Source: Candidatus Heimdallarchaeota archaeon (GTDB taxonomy: Archaea; Asgardarchaeota; Heimdallarchaeia; Heimdallarchaeales; Heimdallarchaeaceae). Taken from it: a stretch of DNA of 64,000 bases. The stretch is from the NCBI GenBank assembly GCA_016840095.1, contig JAEOSZ010000031.1, forward strand, positions 32,001 through 96,000. The letters are read 5' to 3'. The notes beneath the pieces are model-generated. The model was not told the DNA's origin and did no database searches. It saw nothing but the letters and a program-made list of their open reading frames with translations. The position numbers were made by a program, and so were the translations under genes. This document shows, one piece after another, positions 1,893 to 64,000 of the stretch (position 1 is its first letter; every line of letters begins with the position of its first letter).

Positions 1893-2746
1893 GCTCCTAG
1901 TTTCACCTCATCTTCCTTCAGCTTTGCAAGAAGATTGTCTACTTTTTCTTCAGGTTCTCCTTCAGTAATCATGTAGCTCTCTTTATCTAGCACAATGTTT
2001 GAGAAAGACACTTCTATCAACGAAGCGGCTTCCTTTCCAACAACATTTGAGCTAAGTCCTAATTCAGATGCTGTCCATACAGGTACAACAGCTCGCTTTG
2101 CAGTAAGGATTCCTTTCATCGAAGTATATCTTGGAGTAAAATATTGGCTGTCACTGCAACTAATAACTCCTTTCTTAGGAATTGTTACAACCTGTCTTCC
2201 ACCTTCCAAAACATGTTCAATTTTGTAACCTGTTTCAATTACCTCAAGCTCTTCTGCATAAAGAACACTTGGTAATCCAAGTTTTTCAGCTAACATTGCT
2301 CCAATAGCATAGGAACCTGTAGCTTGATCTTCAACTCCCAATAAAACTAAATCAAACTCTCCAATTTTTTCTAGAATTCCAACGTAAACTTTAGCTAAGA
2401 GAAGAGGATCATCAGTGTGAATGGTTTCATCAGCTATTTCAATAGCATCAGTACAACCCATAGCAATCGCTTCTTTCAAAGCTTTGTTAGGTTTCAAACC
2501 TTTAGCGCACACAGCTGTAACTCTTGCTCGATGTTCATCTGTCATTTCGTCACCAAGTTCAGCTTTCATTTTTTCATCAAAGTCATCTTTTAATTTAAGA
2601 GCTCCTTCAAGAGCATTCTTACTTGTAGGATTTATGACAAAATCATCTTCACTAACTTCTGAAGAATCGAAATAATCGACTCCTTGAAGCTTAACCTGTG
2701 TGCTTACTATTTGCTCTATAAACACTATAATCTTCATATTGCTCAA
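1889..2746 (-). CDS. etfB: Electron transfer flavoprotein beta subunit
   Basis: VINP..KNALE.AL, A.AMGC..A, DLVLLG, PRYTSMKGILTAK; overlaps etfA. Confidence 0.92.
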   Translation of the reverse strand: MSNMKIIVFIEQIVSTQVKLQGVDYFDSSEVSEDDFVINPTSKNALEGALKLKDDFDEKMKAELGDEMTDEHRARVTAVCAKGLKPNKALKEAIAMGCTDAIEIADETIHTDDPLLLAKVYVGILEKIGEFDLVLLGVEDQATGSYAIGAMLAEKLGLPSVLYAEELEVIETGYKIEHVLEGGRQVVTIPKKGVISCSDSQYFTPRYTSMKGILTAKRAVVPVWTASELGLSSNVVGKEAASLIEVSFSNIVLDKESYMITEGEPEEKVDNLLAKLKEDEVKLGA

Positions 2747-2871
2747 CGATTCTGAAAAAGTGGTGTTAAATAAAGCTTACTACCTATCAAATATTTGGTA
2801 TGAAACTAAAAGTACTGATTTCAGAGAGAAAATCTTAAGATAATGTAAAGTATCAAAGAATTTGAAATAAT

Positions 2872-3930
2872 ATGACTATAGATAAACAGAAAGTCATCGA
2901 TACACAAATTGAGTTAAGTAATCTGATAGGATGCCCAGGACATGAGGATGAAGTTACAGAATACATCCTCATGAAATTAGAAAAACTTGCAGTAGATAAA
3001 GCGTGGATTGATCCTCTTGGTAATGTTCTAGCAATCAAAAAAGGTTCTGATCCTAACGGACTTAGAATTATGCTTGATGCTCATGTTGATGAAGTTGGAT
3101 TCATGATCTCTCATATAAGTGATGATGGTTTCCTCACTATTGAGACACTTGGAGGGATTGATAAAAGACTGATGCTGGGAGCTCTTCTTCAATTTCAAAC
3201 AGAAGAAGGTAAACGAATACTTGGTGTTGTAGGTGCGTCACCTCCTCACATAACTAAACCAGAAGAAAGAGAAAAGGTTCCAGCTATAAACGAGATGTTT
3301 GTTGATATTGGTTGTGCTTCATATCAAGAAGTTAGGTCGCTGAACTTAGATATTGGTTCTGTAGGAACTTTTTATACAGAGTGTAAACAGCTAAATGAAA
3401 ATGTTCTACTCGGAAAAGCCTTTGATGATCGAACAGCGTGCAATGTTTTGCTACATGTTCTAGATCAGCTGAAGGAAGTAGAAATTCCAAATACTTTGTT
3501 AATTAATTTTGCAGTTCAGGAAGAAGTTGGGGGCAGAGGAGCTACTGTTGCGGGTTTTACACTGGAACCGAGTATTGCATTAGCTTTAGAAAACACAATA
3601 GCTAGTGACGTTCCTGGTGTTTCTTCTTCAAAGATGATAACAAAGCTAGGAAATGGTCCTGCAGTAACAGCTGCAGATAGATCTCTGATAGTTCCAAAAA
3701 AGATTCTTGATAGAATCAAGAAAGCTGCACATCTAGAAGCAATTTCTTGGCAATACAAGAAACCTACTTATGGAGGAACTGATGCAGGATATATCTCAAA
3801 AACAAGGTCAGGTGTTCCTTCTGGTGTAATCTCAGTTCCTTGCAGATACATTCATGCAAATGCAGGATTACTTCATGTAGATGATATCATAGAAACAATA
3901 AAACTTGTAGTTAATTTCTGCAAGATTTAA
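2872..3930 (+). CDS. M42 family (TET/FrvX-like) aminopeptidase
   Basis: DAHVDEVG, KAFDDR, QEEVG.RGA, GGTDAG, PCRYIH. Confidence 0.93.
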   Translation: MTIDKQKVIDTQIELSNLIGCPGHEDEVTEYILMKLEKLAVDKAWIDPLGNVLAIKKGSDPNGLRIMLDAHVDEVGFMISHISDDGFLTIETLGGIDKRLMLGALLQFQTEEGKRILGVVGASPPHITKPEEREKVPAINEMFVDIGCASYQEVRSLNLDIGSVGTFYTECKQLNENVLLGKAFDDRTACNVLLHVLDQLKEVEIPNTLLINFAVQEEVGGRGATVAGFTLEPSIALALENTIASDVPGVSSSKMITKLGNGPAVTAADRSLIVPKKILDRIKKAAHLEAISWQYKKPTYGGTDAGYISKTRSGVPSGVISVPCRYIHANAGLLHVDDIIETIKLVVNFCKI

Positions 3931-26532: not shown

Positions 26533-26629
26533 ATTTCTTGAGTAGATGAAGCAATTAAAAATTAATTGGTGTAATCCAGTTTTTTGTCCAAAGGATATAT
26601 TTTATATACACTTTAAGTGTGAGAAGCTT

Positions 26630-28012
26630 ATGACAGAATATTTGGATACACCAATATCTTGGGGTTCAGAGATATTGAATCACTTTGTACCAATTGAGTA
26701 CAAAGATCAAACAAAATTCTTACATCCTCCTGAATTTTCCAAGCAACCAATGTTCGAGGGAACAGTCAAGGAAGCTTTAATGAGAAAGCTAGATGACCCA
26801 ATTGGTTATAATCTCACTTTTGATGAATTAGTCAAAGAAAAATACGAAAGCGGAAAACCAATCGTATTCGTTATTGATGATTACACTAGGCCTAATATTC
26901 ATACAAAGATTATCCTGCCAATGATGATTGAAAAGATTTTATCATTAGACGTTGCAGAAGATGATTTTAGAATTCTAATCGCAACTGGAACACATAGACA
27001 ACCTAAGGAAGAAGAATATCCAAAAATGGTTGGAGATCAAGTCTATGAAAAATACAGATCACAGATTGTATCACATGATTGTGATGTAGAAGGTGTTTAC
27101 GTTGGTGAAAGTGATGCAGGAACTCCTATGGAATTTGATAAATTGGCTTTTGAAGCATCAATTCTAGTTCCTATTACTGATAGTGAACTTCATTACTTCG
27201 CTGGTGTTGCTGGAACAATCAAAGAGATGTGTCCAGGAATTGCTAGTAGAAAAACAGTTCGACAAAATCATCCAAAAATGTTTAACAGAGAATTAGGATT
27301 TGATCCTGGCTGTAAATTGGGTGGAACAAAAGAAAACCCAGTAATTACAGATATTAAAAATATGGTAAATATACTAAAAACTAAAGTTTCAATTTTTGGA
27401 ATAGATACAATTGTTACTGAAGGAGAAATAGTCCATATTAGCACTGGTGATTTAGTAGAATTACATGATGAAGCAAAGAGACATATTGTTGAAATGAGAA
27501 CAGTAAGGCTTCCTAAGGCTGCAGGAATTGTAGTTAGTGGAATGCAAAGCTGGGGTATCAATCTATACCAAGCTGGTAAAGGCATTCACGCTGCTTGGAA
27601 TGCAACTAAACAAGACGGGAAAGGTATAATTATTGCAGTTGCACCACTTCCAGATGGTGTTGGCAATGCTAATTATGAACAAGTTATGAAAGAAACTGGT
27701 GACATGCCTCTTCAAGAAGGACTTGAATACATCCTTGATAATTACTGTACTACTGAGACTTTCAAAATTGGAAATCAGAAGCCTGTAGATACAATGAGAA
27801 TTGTTAAAACTATTGGTAAAGGAAATCTGAAGATGATTTCTGACTGGGATGCTGAACAATTAACAAAATATTACAGAGTTACACCAATAAAACAACCTGA
27901 TGAATCTCCTGTAGACGCACTTCGAAAAGAAATCAAATCATATATGGCAGATAATCCAGATGAACTAATTTACATAATGGATGATCCTGGCTTATACGTA
28001 ATAATTGAATAG
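26630..28012 (+). CDS. larA: LarA-family nickel-pincer racemase/epimerase
   Basis: DDYTRP, ATGTHR, HYFAG.AG..K...PG, INLYQAGKG; start taken at MTEYL. Confidence 0.85.
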   Translation: MTEYLDTPISWGSEILNHFVPIEYKDQTKFLHPPEFSKQPMFEGTVKEALMRKLDDPIGYNLTFDELVKEKYESGKPIVFVIDDYTRPNIHTKIILPMMIEKILSLDVAEDDFRILIATGTHRQPKEEEYPKMVGDQVYEKYRSQIVSHDCDVEGVYVGESDAGTPMEFDKLAFEASILVPITDSELHYFAGVAGTIKEMCPGIASRKTVRQNHPKMFNRELGFDPGCKLGGTKENPVITDIKNMVNILKTKVSIFGIDTIVTEGEIVHISTGDLVELHDEAKRHIVEMRTVRLPKAAGIVVSGMQSWGINLYQAGKGIHAAWNATKQDGKGIIIAVAPLPDGVGNANYEQVMKETGDMPLQEGLEYILDNYCTTETFKIGNQKPVDTMRIVKTIGKGNLKMISDWDAEQLTKYYRVTPIKQPDESPVDALRKEIKSYMADNPDELIYIMDDPGLYVIIE

Positions 28013-28603: not shown

Positions 28604-28677
28604 TGGTGCACGCACCGGGATTCGAACCCGGGTTGGAGGCGTGGGAGGCCTCAGTCCTACCACTAGACTATGCGTGC
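28604..28677 (-). tRNA. tRNA-Gly(CCC), intron-less, genomically encoded 3' CCA
   Basis: GCACGCATAGTCTAGTGGTAGGACTGAGGCCTCCCACGCCTCCAACCCGGGTTCGAATCCCGGTGCGTGCACCA: acceptor stem GCACGCA/TGCGTGC, anticodon arm GAGGC-CTCCCAC-GCCTC, TTCGAAT T-loop. Confidence 0.97.
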
Positions 28678-28744: not shown

Positions 28745-29941
28745 TTACACATCTAAAATTGATGAAAGTGTTTCTAAGAAGATTAGTATCTCCTCTTCAG
28801 TGTTGTATATATGAGTAGAAACTCTAGCTATATCGTTGTATTTCAGTTCATACATATACAAATGGGAACACAAAGCTCCACTTCTAATCTGTATACTTCT
28901 AATATCATCTAAAACAAGAGCTAAGTCATGAGCTTCAATCTTGTCACACCCGAAGGAAAGTATTGGTCCATACTCAACCCCTTCTATTTCATTGATTTCT
29001 ATGGAAGAGATATCTTTTAGATTCTTCCTTAATTCTTCATGTAACTTTTTCTCATGATCTTGAATCTTAGACAAACCAAAGTTTGACAATATTTCAAGAC
29101 TATTAACCATAGCATCAATATTAGCTACATTGACTAAACCTGTTTCAAATTTGGAACCTGAGGAATTTAGAAAATATGAATATTCTTCAAGTGCTATAAT
29201 TGAACCTCCTCCTACAATCAGAGGATCCATTGATTCATAGATCTCTTCACAAGTAATCTGAAACGCGGTCCCTAAGGGACCTAAAGCACCTATACAACCT
29301 GATGAAACAACAATATCTGGTTGAATAACATCAAAATTAGTAACTTCATGACCAACTGAATAACTGATATCAAGGATGAATGTAGCATTAACTTCTTTAC
29401 AGATTTGTGCTATTTTACCCCAATCTCTCTTCACTCCATTAGTAGCGGTTAAAGAAGAAAGGAGAACAACGTCCTTAGATGTTTGAATCTTTTCACTTAA
29501 TTTCTCAATTATATTCATTTCATCTTCTAAATTAAGATAATCTATATTTGTACCAAAAGAATTGTTTACTCGAATTGCAGGTGCAAGCACAGAGTGCTCT
29601 TCTAGAATACTTGTTGTTATTCTTCTTTCCTTAATATTGGGAATTGAGTGAAAAACATTTGTTAGAAGTGTTTCTCTTGTAGGAAAAAATGAAATCTGAT
29701 TAGGAGATATTTTGAAAATATCAGCAAGAGATTTTCTATTCTTATTCAAAAGTTGATTACTTGCAGATATTTCACTATGGATTCCTCTAACTGGAACTCC
29801 TCCAGTGGAAGCATAATAATCGATCATCTTCTTAATGGAAGAGACTGGAAGTTTTCCTACTGTTGCAGAATCTAAGTAAATTTGTTCTTGTTTTAGGTTG
29901 AATTCAATTCCGAATCTTGTAGAAGTTGTCATAAATCCCAT
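28745..29941 (-). CDS. SufS/Csd-like class V aminotransferase-fold protein lacking the PLP lysine
   Basis: YLDSA, RGIH, LIVGGG, KFETG, IRSGALCSH; SGCIGALGP replaces SGHKxxGP. Confidence 0.85.
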   Translation of the reverse strand: MGFMTTSTRFGIEFNLKQEQIYLDSATVGKLPVSSIKKMIDYYASTGGVPVRGIHSEISASNQLLNKNRKSLADIFKISPNQISFFPTRETLLTNVFHSIPNIKERRITTSILEEHSVLAPAIRVNNSFGTNIDYLNLEDEMNIIEKLSEKIQTSKDVVLLSSLTATNGVKRDWGKIAQICKEVNATFILDISYSVGHEVTNFDVIQPDIVVSSGCIGALGPLGTAFQITCEEIYESMDPLIVGGGSIIALEEYSYFLNSSGSKFETGLVNVANIDAMVNSLEILSNFGLSKIQDHEKKLHEELRKNLKDISSIEINEIEGVEYGPILSFGCDKIEAHDLALVLDDIRSIQIRSGALCSHLYMYELKYNDIARVSTHIYNTEEEILIFLETLSSILDV

Positions 29942-30044
29942 TTGTTTTACAATAAGGAGATATTAAAATTTTCCTTGTTCAGAAATCAAAAGGTTTGAAT
30001 AGTATTGAAATAAATGTACATTAGGGAAAATCTAGAGGATGATC

Positions 30045-30080
30045 GTAAGGCATTTGGTAAAGCATTTGGTAAAGCATTTG
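30045..30080. repeat. 3 x 12-bp tandem repeat (GTAAAGCATTTG)
   Basis: gtaaggcatttg gtaaagcatttg gtaaagcatttg. Confidence 0.9.
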
Positions 30081-30121
30081 CTAGGCCAGAAAGAAGCTAA
30101 GGTGACCTATGATTTTCTCTC

Positions 30122-31312
30122 TCATATTTCTGACATTATTGAATCAAGAGTTTCTAAAACAGTATTAATGTCATTTTCTGTGTTATACAAGTGAGTAGAT
30201 ATCTGTACTAAAGATTCTTTCTTTATTTCATCCATAAAGAGGTGTGAACATAACGCACCACTTCTAACATATATATTTGATAAATCTTCAAGAATTATTG
30301 CAATATCATGAGAATCAATTTCGTCACTGAAGAAGGATAAAATGGGTCCAAACTCAAGTCCTTCTTTTTCAATAATCTCTATATTCTTAATCTCTTTTAG
30401 ACCATCATAGAGAATCTTTCTTAAATTTTGTTCATGTTTTTTTATTTTTTCGAATCCAACATTTGATAGCAATTGTAAACTATTGGCTAAACCTGAAATT
30501 GCTGCAAAATTAAGAGAACCTGGTTCAAATTTATAAGGTGAAGATGACAGTTTGTAATCTGATTTATTAACTGAAACTACTGCTCCTCCGCCAATCAATA
30601 TAGGATGGAGATTATTGTTAGTTTTATCATTAACAATTTGGAATGATGCCCCATAAGGACCAAGCGCTCCGATATTCCCTGATGAAATCGTAATGTTAGG
30701 AGAAACATCACTAAAATCATAGTTTGTATGACCTATACTATTGGATAAATCCAAAACAAAGAACAATCCATTGTCTTCAGCAAGTTTAGTAATGGCTCTC
30801 CAATCTCGTAGAACACCTATACCTAAGGTTAATGAAGAAAGAACTATTGCCTTTGTTTTAGGGTTTATTCTTTCTTGTAGAGAAGCTACCAAATCAACTT
30901 CATCTTCAATTCCAGTGAAAATGATTTTGGATCCGAAATATTTGTTTACATTCAATAATGGAGTTATCACAGAATGATCATCTAGTGAACTCGAAATGAT
31001 TTCATCATCGCTCTCAAAACGTTGAGAAAATAGAGTATTAATCATTGCAGTTTCTCTGGATGGAAGAAAAGATATTTGAGAATTTTCAACAAAAAATATT
31101 TTACTAATTATAGAACGAGATTGTTCCAGAGAGCGACTGGCATAAAGTGCTATTTTATGAGTACCTCTATTAATACCTCCACCATGTTTAGAGTAAAAAT
31201 CACTCATTGCTTTAACAGAGGATTGTGGAAGCTTACCAGCAGTTGCTGAATCTAGATAGATTTCATTCTCTTCAATGATAAAATCTATGCCAAAGTGGTT
31301 TTTGACAGTCAT
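30122..31312 (-). CDS. Second SufS/Csd-like paralog lacking the PLP lysine
   Basis: YLDSATAGKLP, RGTH, KFEPG, VRSGALCSH; SGNIGALGP replaces SGHKxxGP; start taken at MTVKNH. Confidence 0.85.
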   Translation of the reverse strand: MTVKNHFGIDFIIEENEIYLDSATAGKLPQSSVKAMSDFYSKHGGGINRGTHKIALYASRSLEQSRSIISKIFFVENSQISFLPSRETAMINTLFSQRFESDDEIISSSLDDHSVITPLLNVNKYFGSKIIFTGIEDEVDLVASLQERINPKTKAIVLSSLTLGIGVLRDWRAITKLAEDNGLFFVLDLSNSIGHTNYDFSDVSPNITISSGNIGALGPYGASFQIVNDKTNNNLHPILIGGGAVVSVNKSDYKLSSSPYKFEPGSLNFAAISGLANSLQLLSNVGFEKIKKHEQNLRKILYDGLKEIKNIEIIEKEGLEFGPILSFFSDEIDSHDIAIILEDLSNIYVRSGALCSHLFMDEIKKESLVQISTHLYNTENDINTVLETLDSIMSEI

Positions 31313-31397
31313 TGACGATAGTGATAAAAATAAGATTGATTTAAACATTTGTTTCAGAACACCATTTTTTTATATATCTTCAAAATTTCAAGCATGC

Positions 31398-31853
31398 ATG
31401 GACAATAATCTAGGTAAGTTAGAAGAAAACATAGAGAAGGAAATTAGGGCATATATTAGTAATTTCAACGAAATATTGGACAATTTAACAAGCTTATCTA
31501 GCAGTATCATCAATAATAAATTCTGGAAATTACGATCTGATTTAGAGTTACTTATAATCGAGATGAAATTATATCTAAAGAAGGAAGATCTAACCGAAAG
31601 ATGGCAAGCTTCTTTTAAAAATGAACTTAAAGGAACGTCCTCTAGAAGTAAAGCTGGGATTATACTAAAGGAGTATAGGGTGAGTGTTGAAGATTCTATT
31701 AGTGTTTTCAAGAAAAAACCTGAGACAACTTATAAATATCTTTGGAAATTAAAAGAAACTATTTCCTCAGTGCTATCAGCATTTCCTGTTGAGAGAATAG
31801 AATTGTTTTATGGTGAGAAAAAACAGGTTTCAGAAGATGTGTTCGAAATCTAG
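31398..31853 (+). CDS. Hypothetical alpha-helical protein
   Basis: ORF from MDNNL; fills the gap between divergent sufS-like gene and ARPC4-like gene. Confidence 0.65.
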   Translation: MDNNLGKLEENIEKEIRAYISNFNEILDNLTSLSSSIINNKFWKLRSDLELLIIEMKLYLKKEDLTERWQASFKNELKGTSSRSKAGIILKEYRVSVEDSISVFKKKPETTYKYLWKLKETISSVLSAFPVERIELFYGEKKQVSEDVFEI

Positions 31854-31901: not shown

Positions 31902-32390
31902 ATGAGTGCTCATTCAGCTGAGTTCCTTGAAGATAAAGATAAAATCAGGAAAGCTCTTAAGCTTGAACGATATGTCTGTCCACACAGGGAGATTAACTAT
32001 CCTTGTGTTATTTGCAAAGACTGTAGGGAGATGGATTTGAAACAGTATCCATTAAAAAACGGTTTTATCGAAAAAACAAGAAACTCAAGCTTGATTTCAT
32101 TGATTTTAGAACTTAGAGACCCTTTTGATGATATGTTACTCAGAAGGCTAAGTTTAGCACTCTATGAATCTACAGGAATAGTTCAAAAAGAACCAGAACC
32201 AGGTTTTTCGATAACGTTCTACATATCTGAAGCATTGTTAGACAAAATAACAGAAATTGAGAAACTAATTGACTTTATTGCAGATTTTCAACACAAATTC
32301 TTATCAGAAACAATAGCAGCAAGAAGTGCTTTGAATAAGTGGGAGCGGTCAACAACTAAGAGGTTATTGTGGGATATGAGTATTCAATAA
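31902..32390 (+). CDS. Arp2/3 complex subunit 4 (ARPC4)-like protein
   Basis: Colinear similarity to remembered ARPC4: ALKLE/ALCLE, FIEKTRNSSLISL/LIEGSINSVRVSI, QKEPEPGFSITFYI/RRKPVEGYDISFLI, KLIDFI/KLVDFV, long C-terminal helix; similar length. Confidence 0.75.
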   Translation: MSAHSAEFLEDKDKIRKALKLERYVCPHREINYPCVICKDCREMDLKQYPLKNGFIEKTRNSSLISLILELRDPFDDMLLRRLSLALYESTGIVQKEPEPGFSITFYISEALLDKITEIEKLIDFIADFQHKFLSETIAARSALNKWERSTTKRLLWDMSIQ

Positions 32391-32394
32391 TTTA

Positions 32395-33540
32395 CTAAGA
32401 AACACTTTTCCAGTAAAGACCTAGTTTATCTGCATGATTTCTGACTTCATACATTTCTGTAGTAGAAACCCTTTTGTTAATTTCTGGAAATCCACTAGTT
32501 TGAAGGACTTTATAATCTGGGTGATATTGAGCCATGATGTTTACTAAAGGTGTTTTCAGATTCTCACTCACCCAATTCAAGAGAGGTATTGAACAACAAT
32601 TTGTGTGATTTGGCATAACTAAGTGTCGAATTATATACTCACCAGTTCCTCTCTCTTCAATCATTTTCATATTTCTTTGAAGAGCTTCCCAATAATGTGG
32701 AGCTTTGGAATATTTAGATGCACACTCTTTGTTTGCATATTTCATATCTGGTAACCAAATATCAAAAAGATCTGCAATCAATCTCATGCTAGTGTCTGTT
32801 AAGTACATATTACTATTCCATAACATAGGTACATCCACTTGAGAATGGTGAAAAGATTCAAGAATTACATGGAGATTCGGTGTAGGATCTCCCCCTACAA
32901 AATTGATATTTCGAGCATTTTGTTTAACAAGTGTATAGTAATGCTGAGCGAGTTGAGTCGGTGAAGACCCTCTTCCTTTTACTCTATCTAATTCAAATTC
33001 ATGACTAATATCCCAATTTTGGCAGAATTGGCAATGCATAGTGCAACCAAGGAAGAAAATAGTTCCACTTGGAACGATTGGGCTTTCTTCTCCCATGTGG
33101 ATAAATGCAGAACTGACATAAGCACTTCCATCAACTCCACATTTGCCAATTTGTCCTTCCTCTCGATTAGCCTTACATTTGTTTTCACAAAATTCACAAG
33201 AAGAGAGCATATCTTTCAAAATAGCTAACTTTAATGACAAATAATTATTTTTTTCTAAATCTTTATCCTTGAACAGATTTTCAACCTCTTTCTCAACTTC
33301 CTCTAAAGAAAGATGTTGTTTTTCAGAAACCCAATTCTTGAATTTTGAATGATTGTGTTCATGAATATTCAATAGTTCATCTTTATCTTTGAACTCATTG
33401 AAGGGTACATAGAATAATCGAGCTAGTTTATACCTAGGAATTCTCTTACCTTGGAATATTTCTCTATAGTGAACTAATCGTTCTTTAAATTCAACCTGCT
33501 GCCATACTGTCATAGCATCTCTTCTTAAAACCGCCCACAT
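32395..33540 (-). CDS. PflX-like radical SAM protein
   Basis: CEFCENKCKANR, H.GEE....PSGTIFF.GCTMHCQFCQN, VGGDPTP, IRHLVMP. Confidence 0.88.
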   Translation of the reverse strand: MWAVLRRDAMTVWQQVEFKERLVHYREIFQGKRIPRYKLARLFYVPFNEFKDKDELLNIHEHNHSKFKNWVSEKQHLSLEEVEKEVENLFKDKDLEKNNYLSLKLAILKDMLSSCEFCENKCKANREEGQIGKCGVDGSAYVSSAFIHMGEESPIVPSGTIFFLGCTMHCQFCQNWDISHEFELDRVKGRGSSPTQLAQHYYTLVKQNARNINFVGGDPTPNLHVILESFHHSQVDVPMLWNSNMYLTDTSMRLIADLFDIWLPDMKYANKECASKYSKAPHYWEALQRNMKMIEERGTGEYIIRHLVMPNHTNCCSIPLLNWVSENLKTPLVNIMAQYHPDYKVLQTSGFPEINKRVSTTEMYEVRNHADKLGLYWKSVS

Positions 33541-33697: not shown

Positions 33698-34738
33698 ATG
33701 AAGCCGATGTCACAGTCTACAATGCACGAAGCTGAATACTATGAAGTAATTGATGAAGGTAATAGAGTAATTCAATGTCAACTCTGTCCAATTAAATGTA
33801 CATTATTGATAGGGGAAAGAGGTAAGTGTTTTTCACGTGTAAACGTTGAAGGAAAACTGTACTCCTTGACTTATGGATATACAGACATGAAAATTGATAT
33901 GATTGAAAAGCAACATGTTTATCATTTTCATCCAAATTCAAGAGTTCAAACATTTTCTACTTTCAATTGCAATCTGGACTGTGATTACTGTATGATGCCT
34001 GAAAAAATCAGTGTTGATCCAGCAGATACTGGAGCCAAAAAATTAGCGCCAGATCAAGCTGCAATGTTTAGTATGGCTTCTGGATCTAAGGTTATTGCTT
34101 TTGGAGAAGCTGAACCTTTGATTTCTTTTGAATGGGTTCGAGATACAGCCAAGCTAGCTCAGCAAAGAAATCTCAAAGTGTTACTCAGAACAAATGCTTA
34201 TTTCTGTGAAGAGCCTGTAACTGAAATACTAGAATTCGTTGATGCAGTTACAATTGATGTTAAATCGATGTCTGATTCTGGATACCAAGATAAGTGTCAT
34301 GCAGGTACAATAAATGACATTAAGAAAATTATTAAGCTAATCTTCGACAAAGGAAAATTAGTAGAACTAAATCTAGTAATTCATGAAGCTCTTGGAAATA
34401 CAGAAAATCAAACAAGAGAACTAGCTTCGTGGATTATGGAAGAACTCTCGTCATCAGTTCCGCTCCACTTAGCAAGGCTAATACCTTCTCATAGACTAAA
34501 AGAGCTACAACCAACATCTGTAGAATTACTGGAAAAATGTTATGATGTAGCTAAGGAAGTAGGTTTAGAATTTGTTTACCTTGATAATGTACCAGATCAT
34601 GAAGCAACGCATACTTATTGTCCGAAGTGTAAAGAACTACTTATACACAGAGGAGCATCAAATACAGAAGTAAGGAGAGTTTCTCTACACGGTACTTGTA
34701 ATAAGTGTGAAGCTCAGTTAAATATAGTTTTCAAATAG
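33698..34738 (+). CDS. Divergent AmmeMemoRadiSam-type radical SAM paralog
   Basis: CQLCPIKC...C, CNLDCDYC, TYCPKC, CNKC; colinear with 17488..18513. Confidence 0.82.
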   Translation: MKPMSQSTMHEAEYYEVIDEGNRVIQCQLCPIKCTLLIGERGKCFSRVNVEGKLYSLTYGYTDMKIDMIEKQHVYHFHPNSRVQTFSTFNCNLDCDYCMMPEKISVDPADTGAKKLAPDQAAMFSMASGSKVIAFGEAEPLISFEWVRDTAKLAQQRNLKVLLRTNAYFCEEPVTEILEFVDAVTIDVKSMSDSGYQDKCHAGTINDIKKIIKLIFDKGKLVELNLVIHEALGNTENQTRELASWIMEELSSSVPLHLARLIPSHRLKELQPTSVELLEKCYDVAKEVGLEFVYLDNVPDHEATHTYCPKCKELLIHRGASNTEVRRVSLHGTCNKCEAQLNIVFK

Positions 34739-63152: not shown

Positions 63153-64000
63153 ATGTCAAACATAGAAGGATTGTTGAAACAACATGGAACCCCTGAGAAG
63201 GAAGTCTATCTTGATTGGGAAAATGGTTCTGTTGTTGATAAAGAAGTCTACAAGGAGATGAAACCTTTTTATCTAGAAAGGACTTTCGGGAATCCTGCAA
63301 TAACACATCATATGGGATGGGAAACTCTAGACTTTTACATGAAAGCAAAAACCAAGATTGCAAAACCACTAAACGTTGATCCTCAAGCTTTAGCTCTAAC
63401 ACACAGTTTCTCAGAATCAAATAATCTTGCAGTTAGAGGACTTGCAAAAATGAATAAGAAAAGAAAAAAGATTATTGTTTCAGAAGTAGAACATCTTAGT
63501 GTTATTCACACAGCAAAAGCAATGTTTAATGACCAATATCAAGTTGAAATAATCCCAGTTTCTAATGATGGTACTGTTAACCTTGATATTCTCCAAGAAA
63601 AGATAGATAGTGATACTCTGCTAGTAAGTTTACAGACAATAAATCATGAAATCGGAACTATTCAACCTGTAAGAGAAGCTTTAGAGATTGTCAAAGATAA
63701 AGATGAAAGTATATTCTTCCATACAGATGCAACCTCAGCTTTTGGTAGAATACCATTAGATTATAATAAGGTTGAAGTTGATTTAGCCACATTCAATAGT
63801 AACAGAATTCTAGGTCCAAAAGGTATTGCAGGACTCTATATCAAAAAAGGAACTAAACTTAAAGCAATATATGAAGGACAACTAAGCGTTGAAGTTCTTG
63901 CTCCAGATGTAGAAAATCCAGCACTTCTAGCAGGTTTTGCAAAAGCAGTTGAGATACAGTTTGAAAAATTTGATGAGATTAACAATCAGACAAAGAAACT
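63153..64000 (+). CDS. IscS/NifS-like protein lacking the PLP lysine (partial, runs off window end; absent from ORF track)
   Basis: Manual translation MSNIEG...YLDWENG...FGNPA..H...ESNNLA...VEHLSV...NHEIGTIQP...HTDA...FNSNRILGPKGIAGLY; frame open to 64000. Confidence 0.85.
   Translation, partial: MSNIEGLLKQHGTPEKEVYLDWENGSVVDKEVYKEMKPFYLERTFGNPAITHHMGWETLDFYMKAKTKIAKPLNVDPQALALTHSFSESNNLAVRGLAKMNKKRKKIIVSEVEHLSVIHTAKAMFNDQYQVEIIPVSNDGTVNLDILQEKIDSDTLLVSLQTINHEIGTIQPVREALEIVKDKDESIFFHTDATSAFGRIPLDYNKVEVDLATFNSNRILGPKGIAGLYIKKGTKLKAIYEGQLSVEVLAPDVENPALLAGFAKAVEIQFEKFDEINNQTKK

What the first reader, a model, noticed from the sequence alone, without database searches (positions are those of the whole stretch)
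28745..31312. Tandem SufS-like pseudo-desulfurases: no PLP lysine but conserved persulfide cysteine
Seen: two full-length diverged paralogs carry SG(C/N)IGALGP where desulfurases have SGHKxxGP. The DxxQ PLP motif becomes DISY or DLSN, and the phosphate loop FTxGTTE becomes FPTRET or LPSRET. The active-site loop RSGALCSH is identical in both. Known: the Lys-PLP Schiff base is required for desulfuration, and Archaeoglobus IscS, which lacks this Lys, instead donates its Cys as an Fe-S ligand. Inference: this may be an undescribed SufS-fold sulfur carrier or Fe-S ligand protein, perhaps a heterodimer or the partner of an active enzyme, possibly using sulfide rather than cysteine.
Basis: partly seen in the sequence, partly recalled or inferred. 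Interest (0 to 1): 0.8.

Follow-up and report, generated by a model that had tools for sequence, protein, structure and literature searches.

The report
Lysine-less SufS-like pair in Asgard archaeon
Two neighbouring genes of a Heimdall-group (Asgard) archaeon encode well-conserved look-alikes of the sulfur-mobilising enzyme SufS that have lost the whole vitamin-B6 (PLP) site but kept the sulfur-carrying cysteine, and they belong to a family, found almost only in Asgard archaea, that I found described in none of the papers I could search.

Summary
Window 28745-29941(-) (A, 398 aa) and 30122-31312(-) (B, 396 aa) are full-length paralogs, 44% identical, with a SufS (type II cysteine desulfurase) fold. 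Ile replaces the Schiff-base Lys in both. The loss goes beyond that Lys: the residues aligned to E. coli T95, H123, N175, Q203, H225 and T278 are also replaced, and B has lost the substrate Arg. The Cys loop RSGALCSH and the residues aligned to R56 and R359, which act in persulfide transfer, are kept.

The genes are not decaying (dN/dS 0.12-0.23). They belong to a Lys-less clade present in Heimdall, Kari, Thor, Hel, Hermod, Odin-like and Ran lineages. A motif scan of 185,579 species genomes returned 55 Lys-less loci, and every one whose record names a lineage is Asgard. The A/B duplication arose inside Heimdallarchaeaceae.

The same genome keeps a slower-evolving Lys-containing SufS-like gene and a Lys-less IscS-like/IscU pair. 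No sulfur or Fe-S gene was a recurrent neighbour.

My best reading, which is inferred, is a PLP-free dimeric sulfur (persulfide) relay or cluster-ligand protein. The function is not shown. First readers of this scan flagged the same tandem in several other genomes.

The parts
28745..29941 (-). Paralog A (P0001, 398 aa): Lys-less SufS-fold protein. It keeps the Arg aligned to the substrate-carboxylate Arg (R373).
   Evidence: AlphaFold model pLDDT 93.1, pTM 0.93. Foldseek best hits are SufS-type desulfurases with TM 0.85-0.89.
30122..31312 (-). Paralog B (P0002 from Met13, 396 aa; an upstream ATG at 31346-31348 would add 12 residues): Lys-less SufS-fold protein with Gln at the substrate-Arg position.
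   Evidence: Most B-type homologs are 396-397 aa.
29276..29305 (-). SSGCIGALGP in A: the former SGHK PLP-lysine loop. Ile217 (29291-29293) sits at the Lys position and Cys216 at the His position.
30656..30685 (-). SSGNIGALGP in B: the former SGHK loop. Ile226 (30671-30673) sits at the Lys position.
28862..28885 (-). RSGALCSH loop of A. Arg353 aligns to E. coli R359 and Cys358 (28868-28870) aligns to the persulfide Cys C364. Both are invariant in all 77 aligned family members.
30242..30265 (-). RSGALCSH loop of B, with Cys367 at 30248-30250.
28823..28825 (-). Arg373 codon (AGA) of A. The matching codon in B is Gln382 (CAG, 30203-30205). This is one of only three positions fixed differently between the A and B clades.
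29591..29605 (-). LEEHS in A (LDDHS in B at 30971-30985): the former EHHS motif. The first His, aligned to E. coli H123, is replaced by Glu in A and Asp in B. Only the second His is kept.
   Evidence: The role of H123 is taken from PMC11507941.
29942..30121 (.). 180-nt spacer between B and A. The two genes need not be co-transcribed: a TnpB-type insertion separates them in one relative, and they lie on different contigs in another genus.

Best explanation
A and B are PLP-free descendants of a type II (SufS-like) cysteine desulfurase. They have given up the cysteine-cleaving half-reaction and kept the sulfur-handling half.

Each most likely forms a SufS-type dimer, A-B or homodimers. In that dimer the invariant loop cysteine (Cys358 in A, Cys367 in B) would take up sulfane sulfur and pass it to an acceptor. 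It is flanked by the conserved arginines aligned to E. coli R56 and R359, and by the His aligned to B. subtilis His342. The donor would be another source, such as the genome's own Lys-containing SufS-like enzyme or environmental sulfide or polysulfide. A close variant is that the cysteine lends itself as a ligand to a nascent Fe-S cluster.

In Heimdallarchaeaceae the gene duplicated and the copies became asymmetric. Only A carries an Arg at the old substrate-carboxylate position, so A may still bind a small carboxylate ligand while B does not.

Shown: the fold, the loss of the PLP site, retention of the Cys/Arg set, purifying selection, and the phylogenetic distribution.

Inferred: dimerisation, persulfide carriage, and the identity of donor and acceptor.
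For: 1. Fold and type. The match to Aminotran_5 is full length. The model has pLDDT 93 and is closest to SufS structures at TM 0.85-0.89. It has a short Cys loop and a predicted beta-hairpin at 248-258.

2. PLP site dismantled. Columns that are 96-100% conserved in 28 Lys-containing relatives are replaced in A and B. These are the columns aligned to E. coli T95, N99, H123, N175, Q203, H225, K226 and T278. No Lys is conserved across the family.

3. Sulfur-handling set kept. Cys358, Arg353 and Gly355 are invariant in all 77 members. Arg52 is kept in 93-100% of A and B, and His338 in 70-96%. In E. coli SufS, R56 and R359 variants have moderate desulfurase defects but major transpersulfuration defects (PMC11507941). 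B. subtilis His342 binds the zinc of the acceptor SufU (PMC8918507).

4. Selection. dN/dS is 0.12-0.23 on unsaturated ortholog pairs of both A and B.

5. Age and breadth. The Lys-less state is shared by Heimdall, Kari, Thor, Hel, Hermod, Odin-like and Ran lineages. All Lys-containing rows fall on one side of a branch with 99% support.

6. A candidate sulfur donor exists. A Lys-containing SufS-like gene was found in 27 of 30 family genomes, at 82-91% identity within the genus, so it evolves more slowly than A or B.

7. Both copies kept. 20 of the 21 genus genomes with a hit have two. The only fixed A/B differences are at 167, 370 and 373, the last aligned to the substrate Arg.

8. A+B complex model. 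ipSAE 0.90 against a best control of 0.00. That mark was reached by 58 of 80 solved complexes and 2 of 110 mismatched pairs, counts that hold only roughly here because my own alignments were used. The runs share at least 82% of contacts and the partner's pLDDT is at least 90. The interface is SufS-like, so this pass may only reflect likeness to solved SufS dimers.
Against: - No conserved neighbour links the family to sulfur or Fe-S metabolism. Heimdall synteny here is general collinearity. Thor neighbours are GlmS, a saccharopine dehydrogenase and a nucleotidyltransferase-like gene. Hel and Odin-like neighbours are SepRS and endonuclease V.
- No SufE was found in the genome, and no SufB/D core (89% complete). 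The only IscU-type protein sits beside a different Lys-less partner, the IscS-like gene.
- IscU is near-universal in Asgard genomes (357 of 400), so co-occurrence says nothing.
- In type II enzymes the Cys is buried near the dimer interface, so loading it from outside needs a partner that has not been identified.
- No fused forms were found that could hint at a partner.
- Retention of the residues aligned to E. coli D200 and H124 could mean that some other ligand is bound.
- There is no biochemical evidence at all.
Confidence: 0.4

Rival explanations
1. They work as an Archaeoglobus-IscS-like scaffold partner. The dimer binds an IscU-type scaffold and donates its loop Cys as the fourth ligand of a [2Fe-2S] cluster built from free sulfide, with no persulfide chemistry.
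For: There is a precedent: Af IscS has Lys replaced by Asp199, has no desulfurase activity, and its Cys ligates the cluster in the IscS-IscU complex (PMC8918507, PMC13066941). The loop Cys is invariant, and the His aligned to the SufU-zinc ligand (B. subtilis H342) is kept in 70-96% of members. The genome encodes an IscU-type scaffold. A SufB/D core was not found in this genome, nor in 19 of 23 genus mates.
Against: The genome's IscU gene is adjacent to its own Lys-less IscS-like partner, not to A or B. Type II loops are short and helical, and reach partners less freely than type I loops (PMC8918507). IscU is present in 357 of 400 Asgard genomes whether or not the family is present, so co-occurrence is uninformative. 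No adjacency to IscU was seen in any lineage sampled.
Confidence: 0.2
2. They carry out new chemistry in a rebuilt pocket. The old PLP and substrate cavity now binds another ligand or metal, and the loop Cys acts as nucleophile or ligand in a reaction unrelated to sulfur relay. A would be the ligand-binding subunit.
For: The residues aligned to E. coli D200 and H124 are kept. His360 and His377 are 100% conserved in A and B. Cys216 occupies the old His225 position in 80% of A sequences. A re-fixed an Arg at the carboxylate-binding position, while B and 89% of other Lys-less members have Gln. The other fixed A/B differences (167, 370) flank the same pocket. Af IscS shows that a Lys-less protein can still hold PMP (PMC8918507).
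Against: The aligned phosphate and ring ligands of PLP/PMP are replaced (T95 by Glu, H225 by Cys/Ser/Asn, T278 by Ile/Ser/Leu, Q203, N175), so a vitamin-B6 ligand is unlikely. His377 is also present in the Lys-containing T. onnurineus enzyme, so it is not a new feature. No neighbouring genes suggest a pathway. I could not read model coordinates, so pocket geometry is untested.
Confidence: 0.15
3. They are non-catalytic regulators (pseudoenzymes). A and/or B bind the active Lys-containing SufS-like enzyme or another protein and tune it. The Cys loop is conserved only for folding or binding.
For: Pseudoenzyme paralogs often regulate their active relatives. An active paralog is present in nearly all genomes of the family. 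A and B evolve faster than that paralog: 56-79% and 50-83% identity among relatives, against 82-91% for the active paralog within the genus.
Against: Absolute invariance of Cys, Arg353 and Gly355 across lineages only about 25-30% identical is hard to explain by folding alone. A and B share only about 24% identity with the active paralog, so mixed dimers are not obviously favoured. That pairing was not modelled.
Confidence: 0.12
4. They are still cysteine desulfurases and use a different lysine or non-covalently bound PLP.
For: The overall fold and the Cys loop are intact.
Against: No Lys is conserved across the A, B and other Lys-less groups. The best-kept ones, K30 and K264, lie away from the aligned PLP-site positions. 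The aligned acid-base His (E. coli H123) is Glu or Asp, and Q203, N175, H225, T95 and T278 are replaced. B and most of the clade lack the substrate Arg. NCBIfam SufS scores are 185 and 201 bits against a cut-off of 475.
Confidence: 0.03
5. They are decaying gene copies with no function.
For: Loss of the catalytic Lys is the classic mark of a dead enzyme.
Against: The frames are open and full length in all 15 genus genomes I extracted for both genes, and full length in the other Asgard lineages sampled. dN/dS is 0.12-0.23. Motifs are invariant across the phylum.
Confidence: 0.01

Closest known systems
Type II cysteine desulfurases (SufS/CsdA), for example Thermococcus onnurineus CDS (PDB 5b7s), B. 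subtilis SufS and E. coli SufS
   Same: Same fold (Foldseek TM 0.85-0.89) and the closest sequence match in the PDB (E 9e-40). The short RxGxxC loop is shared, as are the residues aligned to E. coli R56, R359 and D200 and to B. subtilis H342, and the terminal YNT motif. The modelled dimer interface is SufS-like.
   Different: There is no Schiff-base Lys. The residues aligned to E. coli H123, N175, Q203, H225, T95 and T278 are replaced, and B lacks the substrate Arg. Scores are far below the curated SufS cut-off, 185 and 201 against 475 bits. No SufE or SufB/D core was found in the genome and the only IscU/SufU-family gene sits beside the IscS-like gene; none was seen next to the family in the loci sampled.
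Archaeoglobus fulgidus IscS (PDB 4hvk, 4eb5), the one characterised inactive desulfurase paralog
   Same: It is also an archaeal class-V-fold protein without the PLP Lys that keeps its loop Cys. It is thought to work without cysteine cleavage, possibly with sulfide (PMC8918507).
   Different: Af IscS is type I, with a long flexible loop. It is encoded with IscU, and it still binds PMP or PLP non-covalently (PMC8918507). A and B are type II, have no adjacent scaffold gene, and have lost the other cofactor ligands too. The true counterpart of Af IscS in this genome is a separate gene at window 63153 onward, with Lys replaced by Arg, next to IscU.
The same genome's Lys-containing SufS-like gene (G000 contig C152, 73166-74437; locus L001, 1423-2697)
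   Same: Same superfamily and fold class. It has a Cys loop (RSGNMCVHP) and is present in the same genomes.
   Different: It has SVHK, DEAQ and the substrate Arg. It scores 384 bits on the SufS model, against 185 and 201 for A and B. It is 82-91% identical within the genus, so it evolves more slowly. It is only about 24% identical to A.

Membership tests
Pfam PF00266 Aminotran_5 (class V fold) | Full-length match above the gathering score | tested here: met
   181.3 and 207.3 bits against a cut-off of 21.5, covering profile positions 1-369/370 of 371
SufS-family (type II) cysteine desulfurase, NCBIfam TIGR01979 | Score above the curated cut-off | tested here: not met
   184.8 and 200.9 bits against a cut-off of 475.1
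SufS-family (type II) cysteine desulfurase | Type II architecture: SufS-like fold, short Cys loop, beta-hairpin | tested here: met
   Foldseek best hits are all SufS-type, TM 0.85-0.89. RSGALCSH aligns without gaps to RSGHHCA. Strands are predicted at 248-252 and 255-258.
SufS-family (type II) cysteine desulfurase | Schiff-base Lys of SGHK holding PLP | tested here: not met
   Ile217 in A and Ile226 in B. Lys is at 0% in the A, B and other Lys-less groups, against 100% in 28 Lys-containing relatives.
SufS-family (type II) cysteine desulfurase | Acid-base and ring-stacking His (E. coli H123) and the other PLP ligands (Q203, N175, H225, T95, T278) | tested here: not met
   By alignment these are Glu/Asp, Tyr/Asn, Ala/Leu, Cys/Asn, Glu and Leu/Ser in A/B. 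Only the residues aligned to D200, H124 and S223 are kept. The assignment of most E. coli residue numbers rests on my own knowledge of the SufS sequence. The roles of H123 and K226 are from PMC11507941.
SufS-family (type II) cysteine desulfurase | Persulfide Cys with flanking Arg (E. coli C364, R359) | tested here: met
   Invariant in all 77 family members
SufS-family (type II) cysteine desulfurase | Substrate alpha-carboxylate Arg (E. coli R379, B. subtilis R376) | tested here: inconclusive
   A clade 100% Arg, B clade 100% Gln, other Lys-less members 89% Gln
SufS-family (type II) cysteine desulfurase | Cysteine desulfurase activity | not testable with these tools
   Needs purified protein
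Af IscS-type inactive desulfurase paralog (MIS-like IscS/IscU pair) | Type I (IscS/NifS) sequence type with a long Cys loop | tested here: not met
   NCBIfam IscS and NifS scores are only 41-59 bits, against 185-201 for SufS. Structural neighbours are type II.
Af IscS-type inactive desulfurase paralog (MIS-like IscS/IscU pair) | Encoded next to an IscU-type scaffold | tested here: not met
   No NifU_N gene lies next to A or B in the window, and none was seen among the neighbours annotated in the other lineages, not all of which were annotated. The genome's one IscU lies beside the separate IscS-like gene.
Af IscS-type inactive desulfurase paralog (MIS-like IscS/IscU pair) | Lys absent, loop Cys present | tested here: met
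Af IscS-type inactive desulfurase paralog (MIS-like IscS/IscU pair) | Non-covalent PMP/PLP and a Cys-ligated [2Fe-2S] cluster | not testable with these tools
   Loss of the aligned phosphate and ring ligands argues against the cofactor. Cluster ligation needs an experiment.

The most novel reading that the evidence does not exclude
Asgard archaea carry a dedicated PLP-free 'half-SufS'. This is an ancient family, seen almost only in this phylum, that has separated persulfide carriage and transfer from cysteine cleavage. It would be loaded by a separate desulfurase or directly from sulfide or polysulfide. In Heimdallarchaeaceae it has become an asymmetric A-B heterodimer in which only A binds a carboxylate ligand. 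That would be the first type II pseudo-desulfurase with a defined role, and a new node in archaeal sulfur trafficking.
Probability: 0.3. Interest if true: 0.75.

Novelty: new variant of a known kind. Interest (0 to 1): 0.62.

Why it matters
How anaerobic archaea move sulfur into Fe-S clusters and thio-cofactors without the bacterial relay proteins is still unsettled. The reviews I read (PMC13066941, PMC8918507) leave the sulfur source and carriers of the minimal archaeal systems open. They describe only one inactive desulfurase paralog, Af IscS, which is type I.

This is a second, independent case in the type II lineage. It is conserved under selection across most Asgard classes, including the Heimdall group close to the eukaryotic stem. 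Its cofactor site has been erased far more thoroughly than in Af IscS.

The family offers a clean test of whether the SufS scaffold can act as a stand-alone persulfide or cluster-ligand protein. Current annotations call these proteins 'aminotransferase class V-fold PLP-dependent enzyme' or 'cysteine desulfurase/selenocysteine lyase'. They should not be counted as desulfurases in metabolic reconstructions.

If the proteins turn out to be only regulators, the interest is modest.

Tried and rejected
- Gene neighbourhood as a guide to function. The Heimdallarchaeaceae block (Lon, two radical SAM genes, an ARPC4-like gene, a 151-aa ORF, B, A, tRNA-Gly, LarA-like, MFS, NUDIX, PolB) is conserved as a whole, so it reflects general collinearity. 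Thor loci share GlmS, a saccharopine dehydrogenase and a nucleotidyltransferase-like gene. Hel-like loci have SepRS upstream, and Hel-like and Odin-like loci have endonuclease V downstream.
- SepRS link rejected. SepRS was found in none of the Heimdall families f1-f8, and it lies about 240 kb away in the complete Odin-like genome.
- The 151-aa divergent neighbour as a sulfur carrier: rejected. It has no conserved Cys or His.
- Fused forms as a clue to a partner. The only longer hits, of 885 and 761 aa, contain Lys. The tool itself calls such a negative weak.
- IscU co-occurrence: uninformative, since IscU is in 357 of 400 Asgard genomes.
- SufB/D loss as a correlate of the duplication: no clear pattern.
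- A+B complex job. It passes its controls, but it cannot separate hetero- from homodimers and may pass only because SufS dimers are solved. I could run one job only, so A+A, B+B, A with IscU and A with the Lys-containing SufS were not modelled.
- Scanning genome contigs with the wide alignment A2 failed because no stretch was conserved enough. A narrower alignment (A3) worked. Its single archaeal non-Asgard hit, Ca. Hecatella orcuttiae, contains Lys, and the Dyadobacter hit is a 31-residue chance match.
- Model coordinates are not exposed, so I could not measure whether any Lys, Cys or His points into the pocket. I used family conservation instead.
- Literature searches found no description of a Lys-less type II clade. 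Subscription-only papers were not searchable.
Full report
**What is there.** The window has 32-36% G+C. It belongs to an Asgard archaeon of the Heimdall group: all named close homologs are Heimdallarchaeota or Heimdallarchaeaceae, and an ARPC4-like ORF lies nearby. On the minus strand lie two ORFs. A is 28745-29941 (398 aa, P0001). B is 30122-31348 (408 aa, P0002), but its 396-aa homologs indicate the ATG at 31310-31312. The two are 44% identical without gaps and are separated by 180 nt. Both match Pfam Aminotran_5 end to end. Their best NCBIfam model is SufS, at 185 and 201 bits against a cut-off of 475.

**Checking the observation.** In the alignment to the solved Thermococcus onnurineus desulfurase 5b7s (E 9e-40), SGHK lies over SGCI and RSGHHC over RSGALC. 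So the Schiff-base Lys is Ile and the persulfide Cys is kept. The same holds for B.

I then asked which columns are 96-100% conserved in 28 Lys-containing relatives and what A and B carry there. Besides Lys, the residues aligned to E. coli T95, N99, H123, N175, Q203, H225 and T278 are replaced. H123 is the first His of EHH and is Glu in A and Asp in B. The residues aligned to D200, H124, S223, R56, R359 and C364 are kept. R379 is Arg in A but Gln in B. Most of the E. coli numbering comes from my own knowledge of the SufS sequence. PMC11507941 gives K226 as the base that removes the alpha proton, H123 as the residue that deprotonates C364, and R56 and R359 as mainly needed for transpersulfuration. 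No Lys is conserved across the family. The best-kept ones, K30 and K264, lie away from the aligned PLP-site positions.

**Fold.** An AlphaFold model of A, built on a 77-sequence family alignment, has pLDDT 93.1 and pTM 0.93. Its closest solved structures are all SufS-type desulfurases at TM 0.85-0.89. The short Cys loop and a hairpin at 248-258 mark it as type II. The type features are taken from PMC8918507.

**Not decay.** Nei-Gojobori dN/dS on unsaturated ortholog pairs from 15 genus genomes is 0.14-0.22 for A and 0.12-0.23 for B.

**How wide the family is.**
- About 85 close homologs, all Heimdall-group where named, lack the Lys and keep RSGALC(S/A)HL.
- A search of 1.84 billion cluster representatives found more distant Lys-less members. 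Those carrying a name are annotated Promethearchaeota, Kariarchaeaceae or Ranarchaeia.
- In 400 genomes of the phylum, 21 of 24 genus genomes have a hit and 20 of those have two. A second genus has two unlinked copies. Three further genera of the family have one copy. Single Lys-less copies occur in other families, including small Odin-like genomes.
- A scan of 185,579 species genomes for VRSG[LQY][LIV]C[AS]HP returned 59 loci. Fifty-five of the 56 that I could extract are Lys-less. Where their records name a lineage it is Asgard (mostly Thor, plus Hel, Hermod, Heimdall and Kari), apart from one record titled as a bacterium that the genome set used here places in this phylum. The one other archaeal hit, Ca. 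Hecatella, has SGHK.
- In a quick LG+G4 tree of 89 sequences, all Lys-containing rows lie on one side of a branch with 99% SH-aLRT support. The Heimdallarchaeaceae clade has 100% support, and the A/B split lies inside it with 98%. The tree is unrooted and the search was short, so a single loss of Lys is likely but not proven.

**A versus B.** Only three positions are fixed differently between 30 A and 28 B sequences: 167 (Thr/Gly), 370 (Asp/Ser) and 373 (Arg/Gln). Position 373 aligns to the substrate-carboxylate Arg. The single-copy relatives and 89% of other Lys-less members have Gln there, so A probably regained Arg. That inference is by parsimony. A also has Cys216 at the old His225 position in 80% of sequences.

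A complex model of A+B gave ipSAE 0.90 against a best control of 0.00. That mark was reached by 58 of 80 solved complexes and 2 of 110 mismatched pairs, counts that hold only roughly here because my own alignments were used. The runs agree in at least 82% of contacts and the partner's pLDDT is at least 90. The interface is the SufS one. Because SufS dimers are solved, this shows likeness only. It does not show that A binds B rather than itself.

**Context in the genome** (89% complete).
- A Lys-containing SufS-like gene (SVHK, 384 bits on the SufS model) lies on another contig. It was found in 27 of 30 family genomes, at 82-91% identity within the genus.
- A Lys-less IscS-like gene (Lys replaced by Arg) with an adjacent IscU starts at window 63153.
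- No SufE and no SufB/D core were found. SufB/D was found in only 4 of 23 genus mates.
- Neighbours give no functional lead. The SepRS adjacency in Hel-like genomes is lineage-specific.

**Interpretation.** The family has lost everything needed for the PLP half-reaction and kept what E. coli work assigns to persulfide handling. The most economical mechanism is a PLP-free dimer that uses its loop Cys to carry or hand on sulfur, or to ligate a cluster as Af IscS does. I put this at 0.4, and the Af IscS-like variant separately at 0.2. A rebuilt ligand pocket (0.15) and a pure regulator (0.12) remain open. A working desulfurase (0.03) or a decaying gene (0.01) is unlikely.

**Novelty.** The searchable literature describes one inactive paralog, Af IscS. 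It is type I and still binds PMP (PMC8918507). I found no description of a Lys-less type II clade or of its restriction to Asgard genomes. I therefore class this as a new variant of a known kind.

First readers of this scan flagged the same tandem in several other genomes. One of their notes says the PLP-stacking His is kept, which my alignment contradicts.

Noticed in passing
window 63153-64000 (+), continuing beyond the window (L004 1450-2661, then 2674-3186): A third Lys-less desulfurase homolog. It is an IscS/NifS-like gene with FNSNRILGPKG (Lys replaced by Arg) and an intact SSGSACTS loop, followed directly by an IscU-type scaffold gene (LPSVKTHC). This is the real counterpart of the Archaeoglobus IscS/IscU pair, about 32 kb from A and B.
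   Followed up: partly
window 31902-32390 (+) and 31398-31853 (+): An ARPC4-like ORF (Pfam PF05856, E 2.5e-7) lies beside a conserved 151-aa helical ORF that matches no Pfam or NCBIfam family. The latter is transcribed divergently from paralog B, or from the single-copy gene, in all five Heimdallarchaeaceae genera sampled. It has no conserved Cys or His.
   Followed up: partly
window 28604-28677 (-): tRNA-Gly(CCC) lies 68 nt downstream of paralog A.
   Followed up: no
L018 1871-5466 and L020 4656-8168 (Helarchaeota-like genomes); L021 and L022 (Odin-like): SepRS (TIGR00470, 497 bits), the Lys-less SufS-like gene and endonuclease V lie in a row on one strand. The Odin-like genomes also have endonuclease V directly downstream. 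SepRS was found in none of the Heimdall families searched, so the link is lineage-specific, but it might hint at a tRNA-related role.
   Followed up: partly
L013 2533-4740: In one genus relative, a 735-aa TnpB/Cas12f-like gene and other ORFs are inserted between paralogs B and A. The pair is therefore not an obligate operon.
   Followed up: no
whole genome G000 and genus mates: The SufB/D core (PF01458) was not found in this genome (89% complete), nor in 19 of 23 genus genomes searched, though it is present in sister genera. SufE was not found in this genome either. Fe-S assembly may rest on the IscS-like/IscU pair.
   Followed up: partly
window 32395-33540 (-) and 33698-34738 (+): Two radical SAM genes lie here. 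The second reaches the cut-off of the AmmeMemoRadiSam radical SAM model (221 bits against 220). They are part of the block that is syntenic across the family.
   Followed up: no
window 26546-28012 (+): A LarA-like ORF (lactate racemase N-terminal domain, E 2e-39) lies downstream of the pair. It is syntenic in relatives.
   Followed up: no
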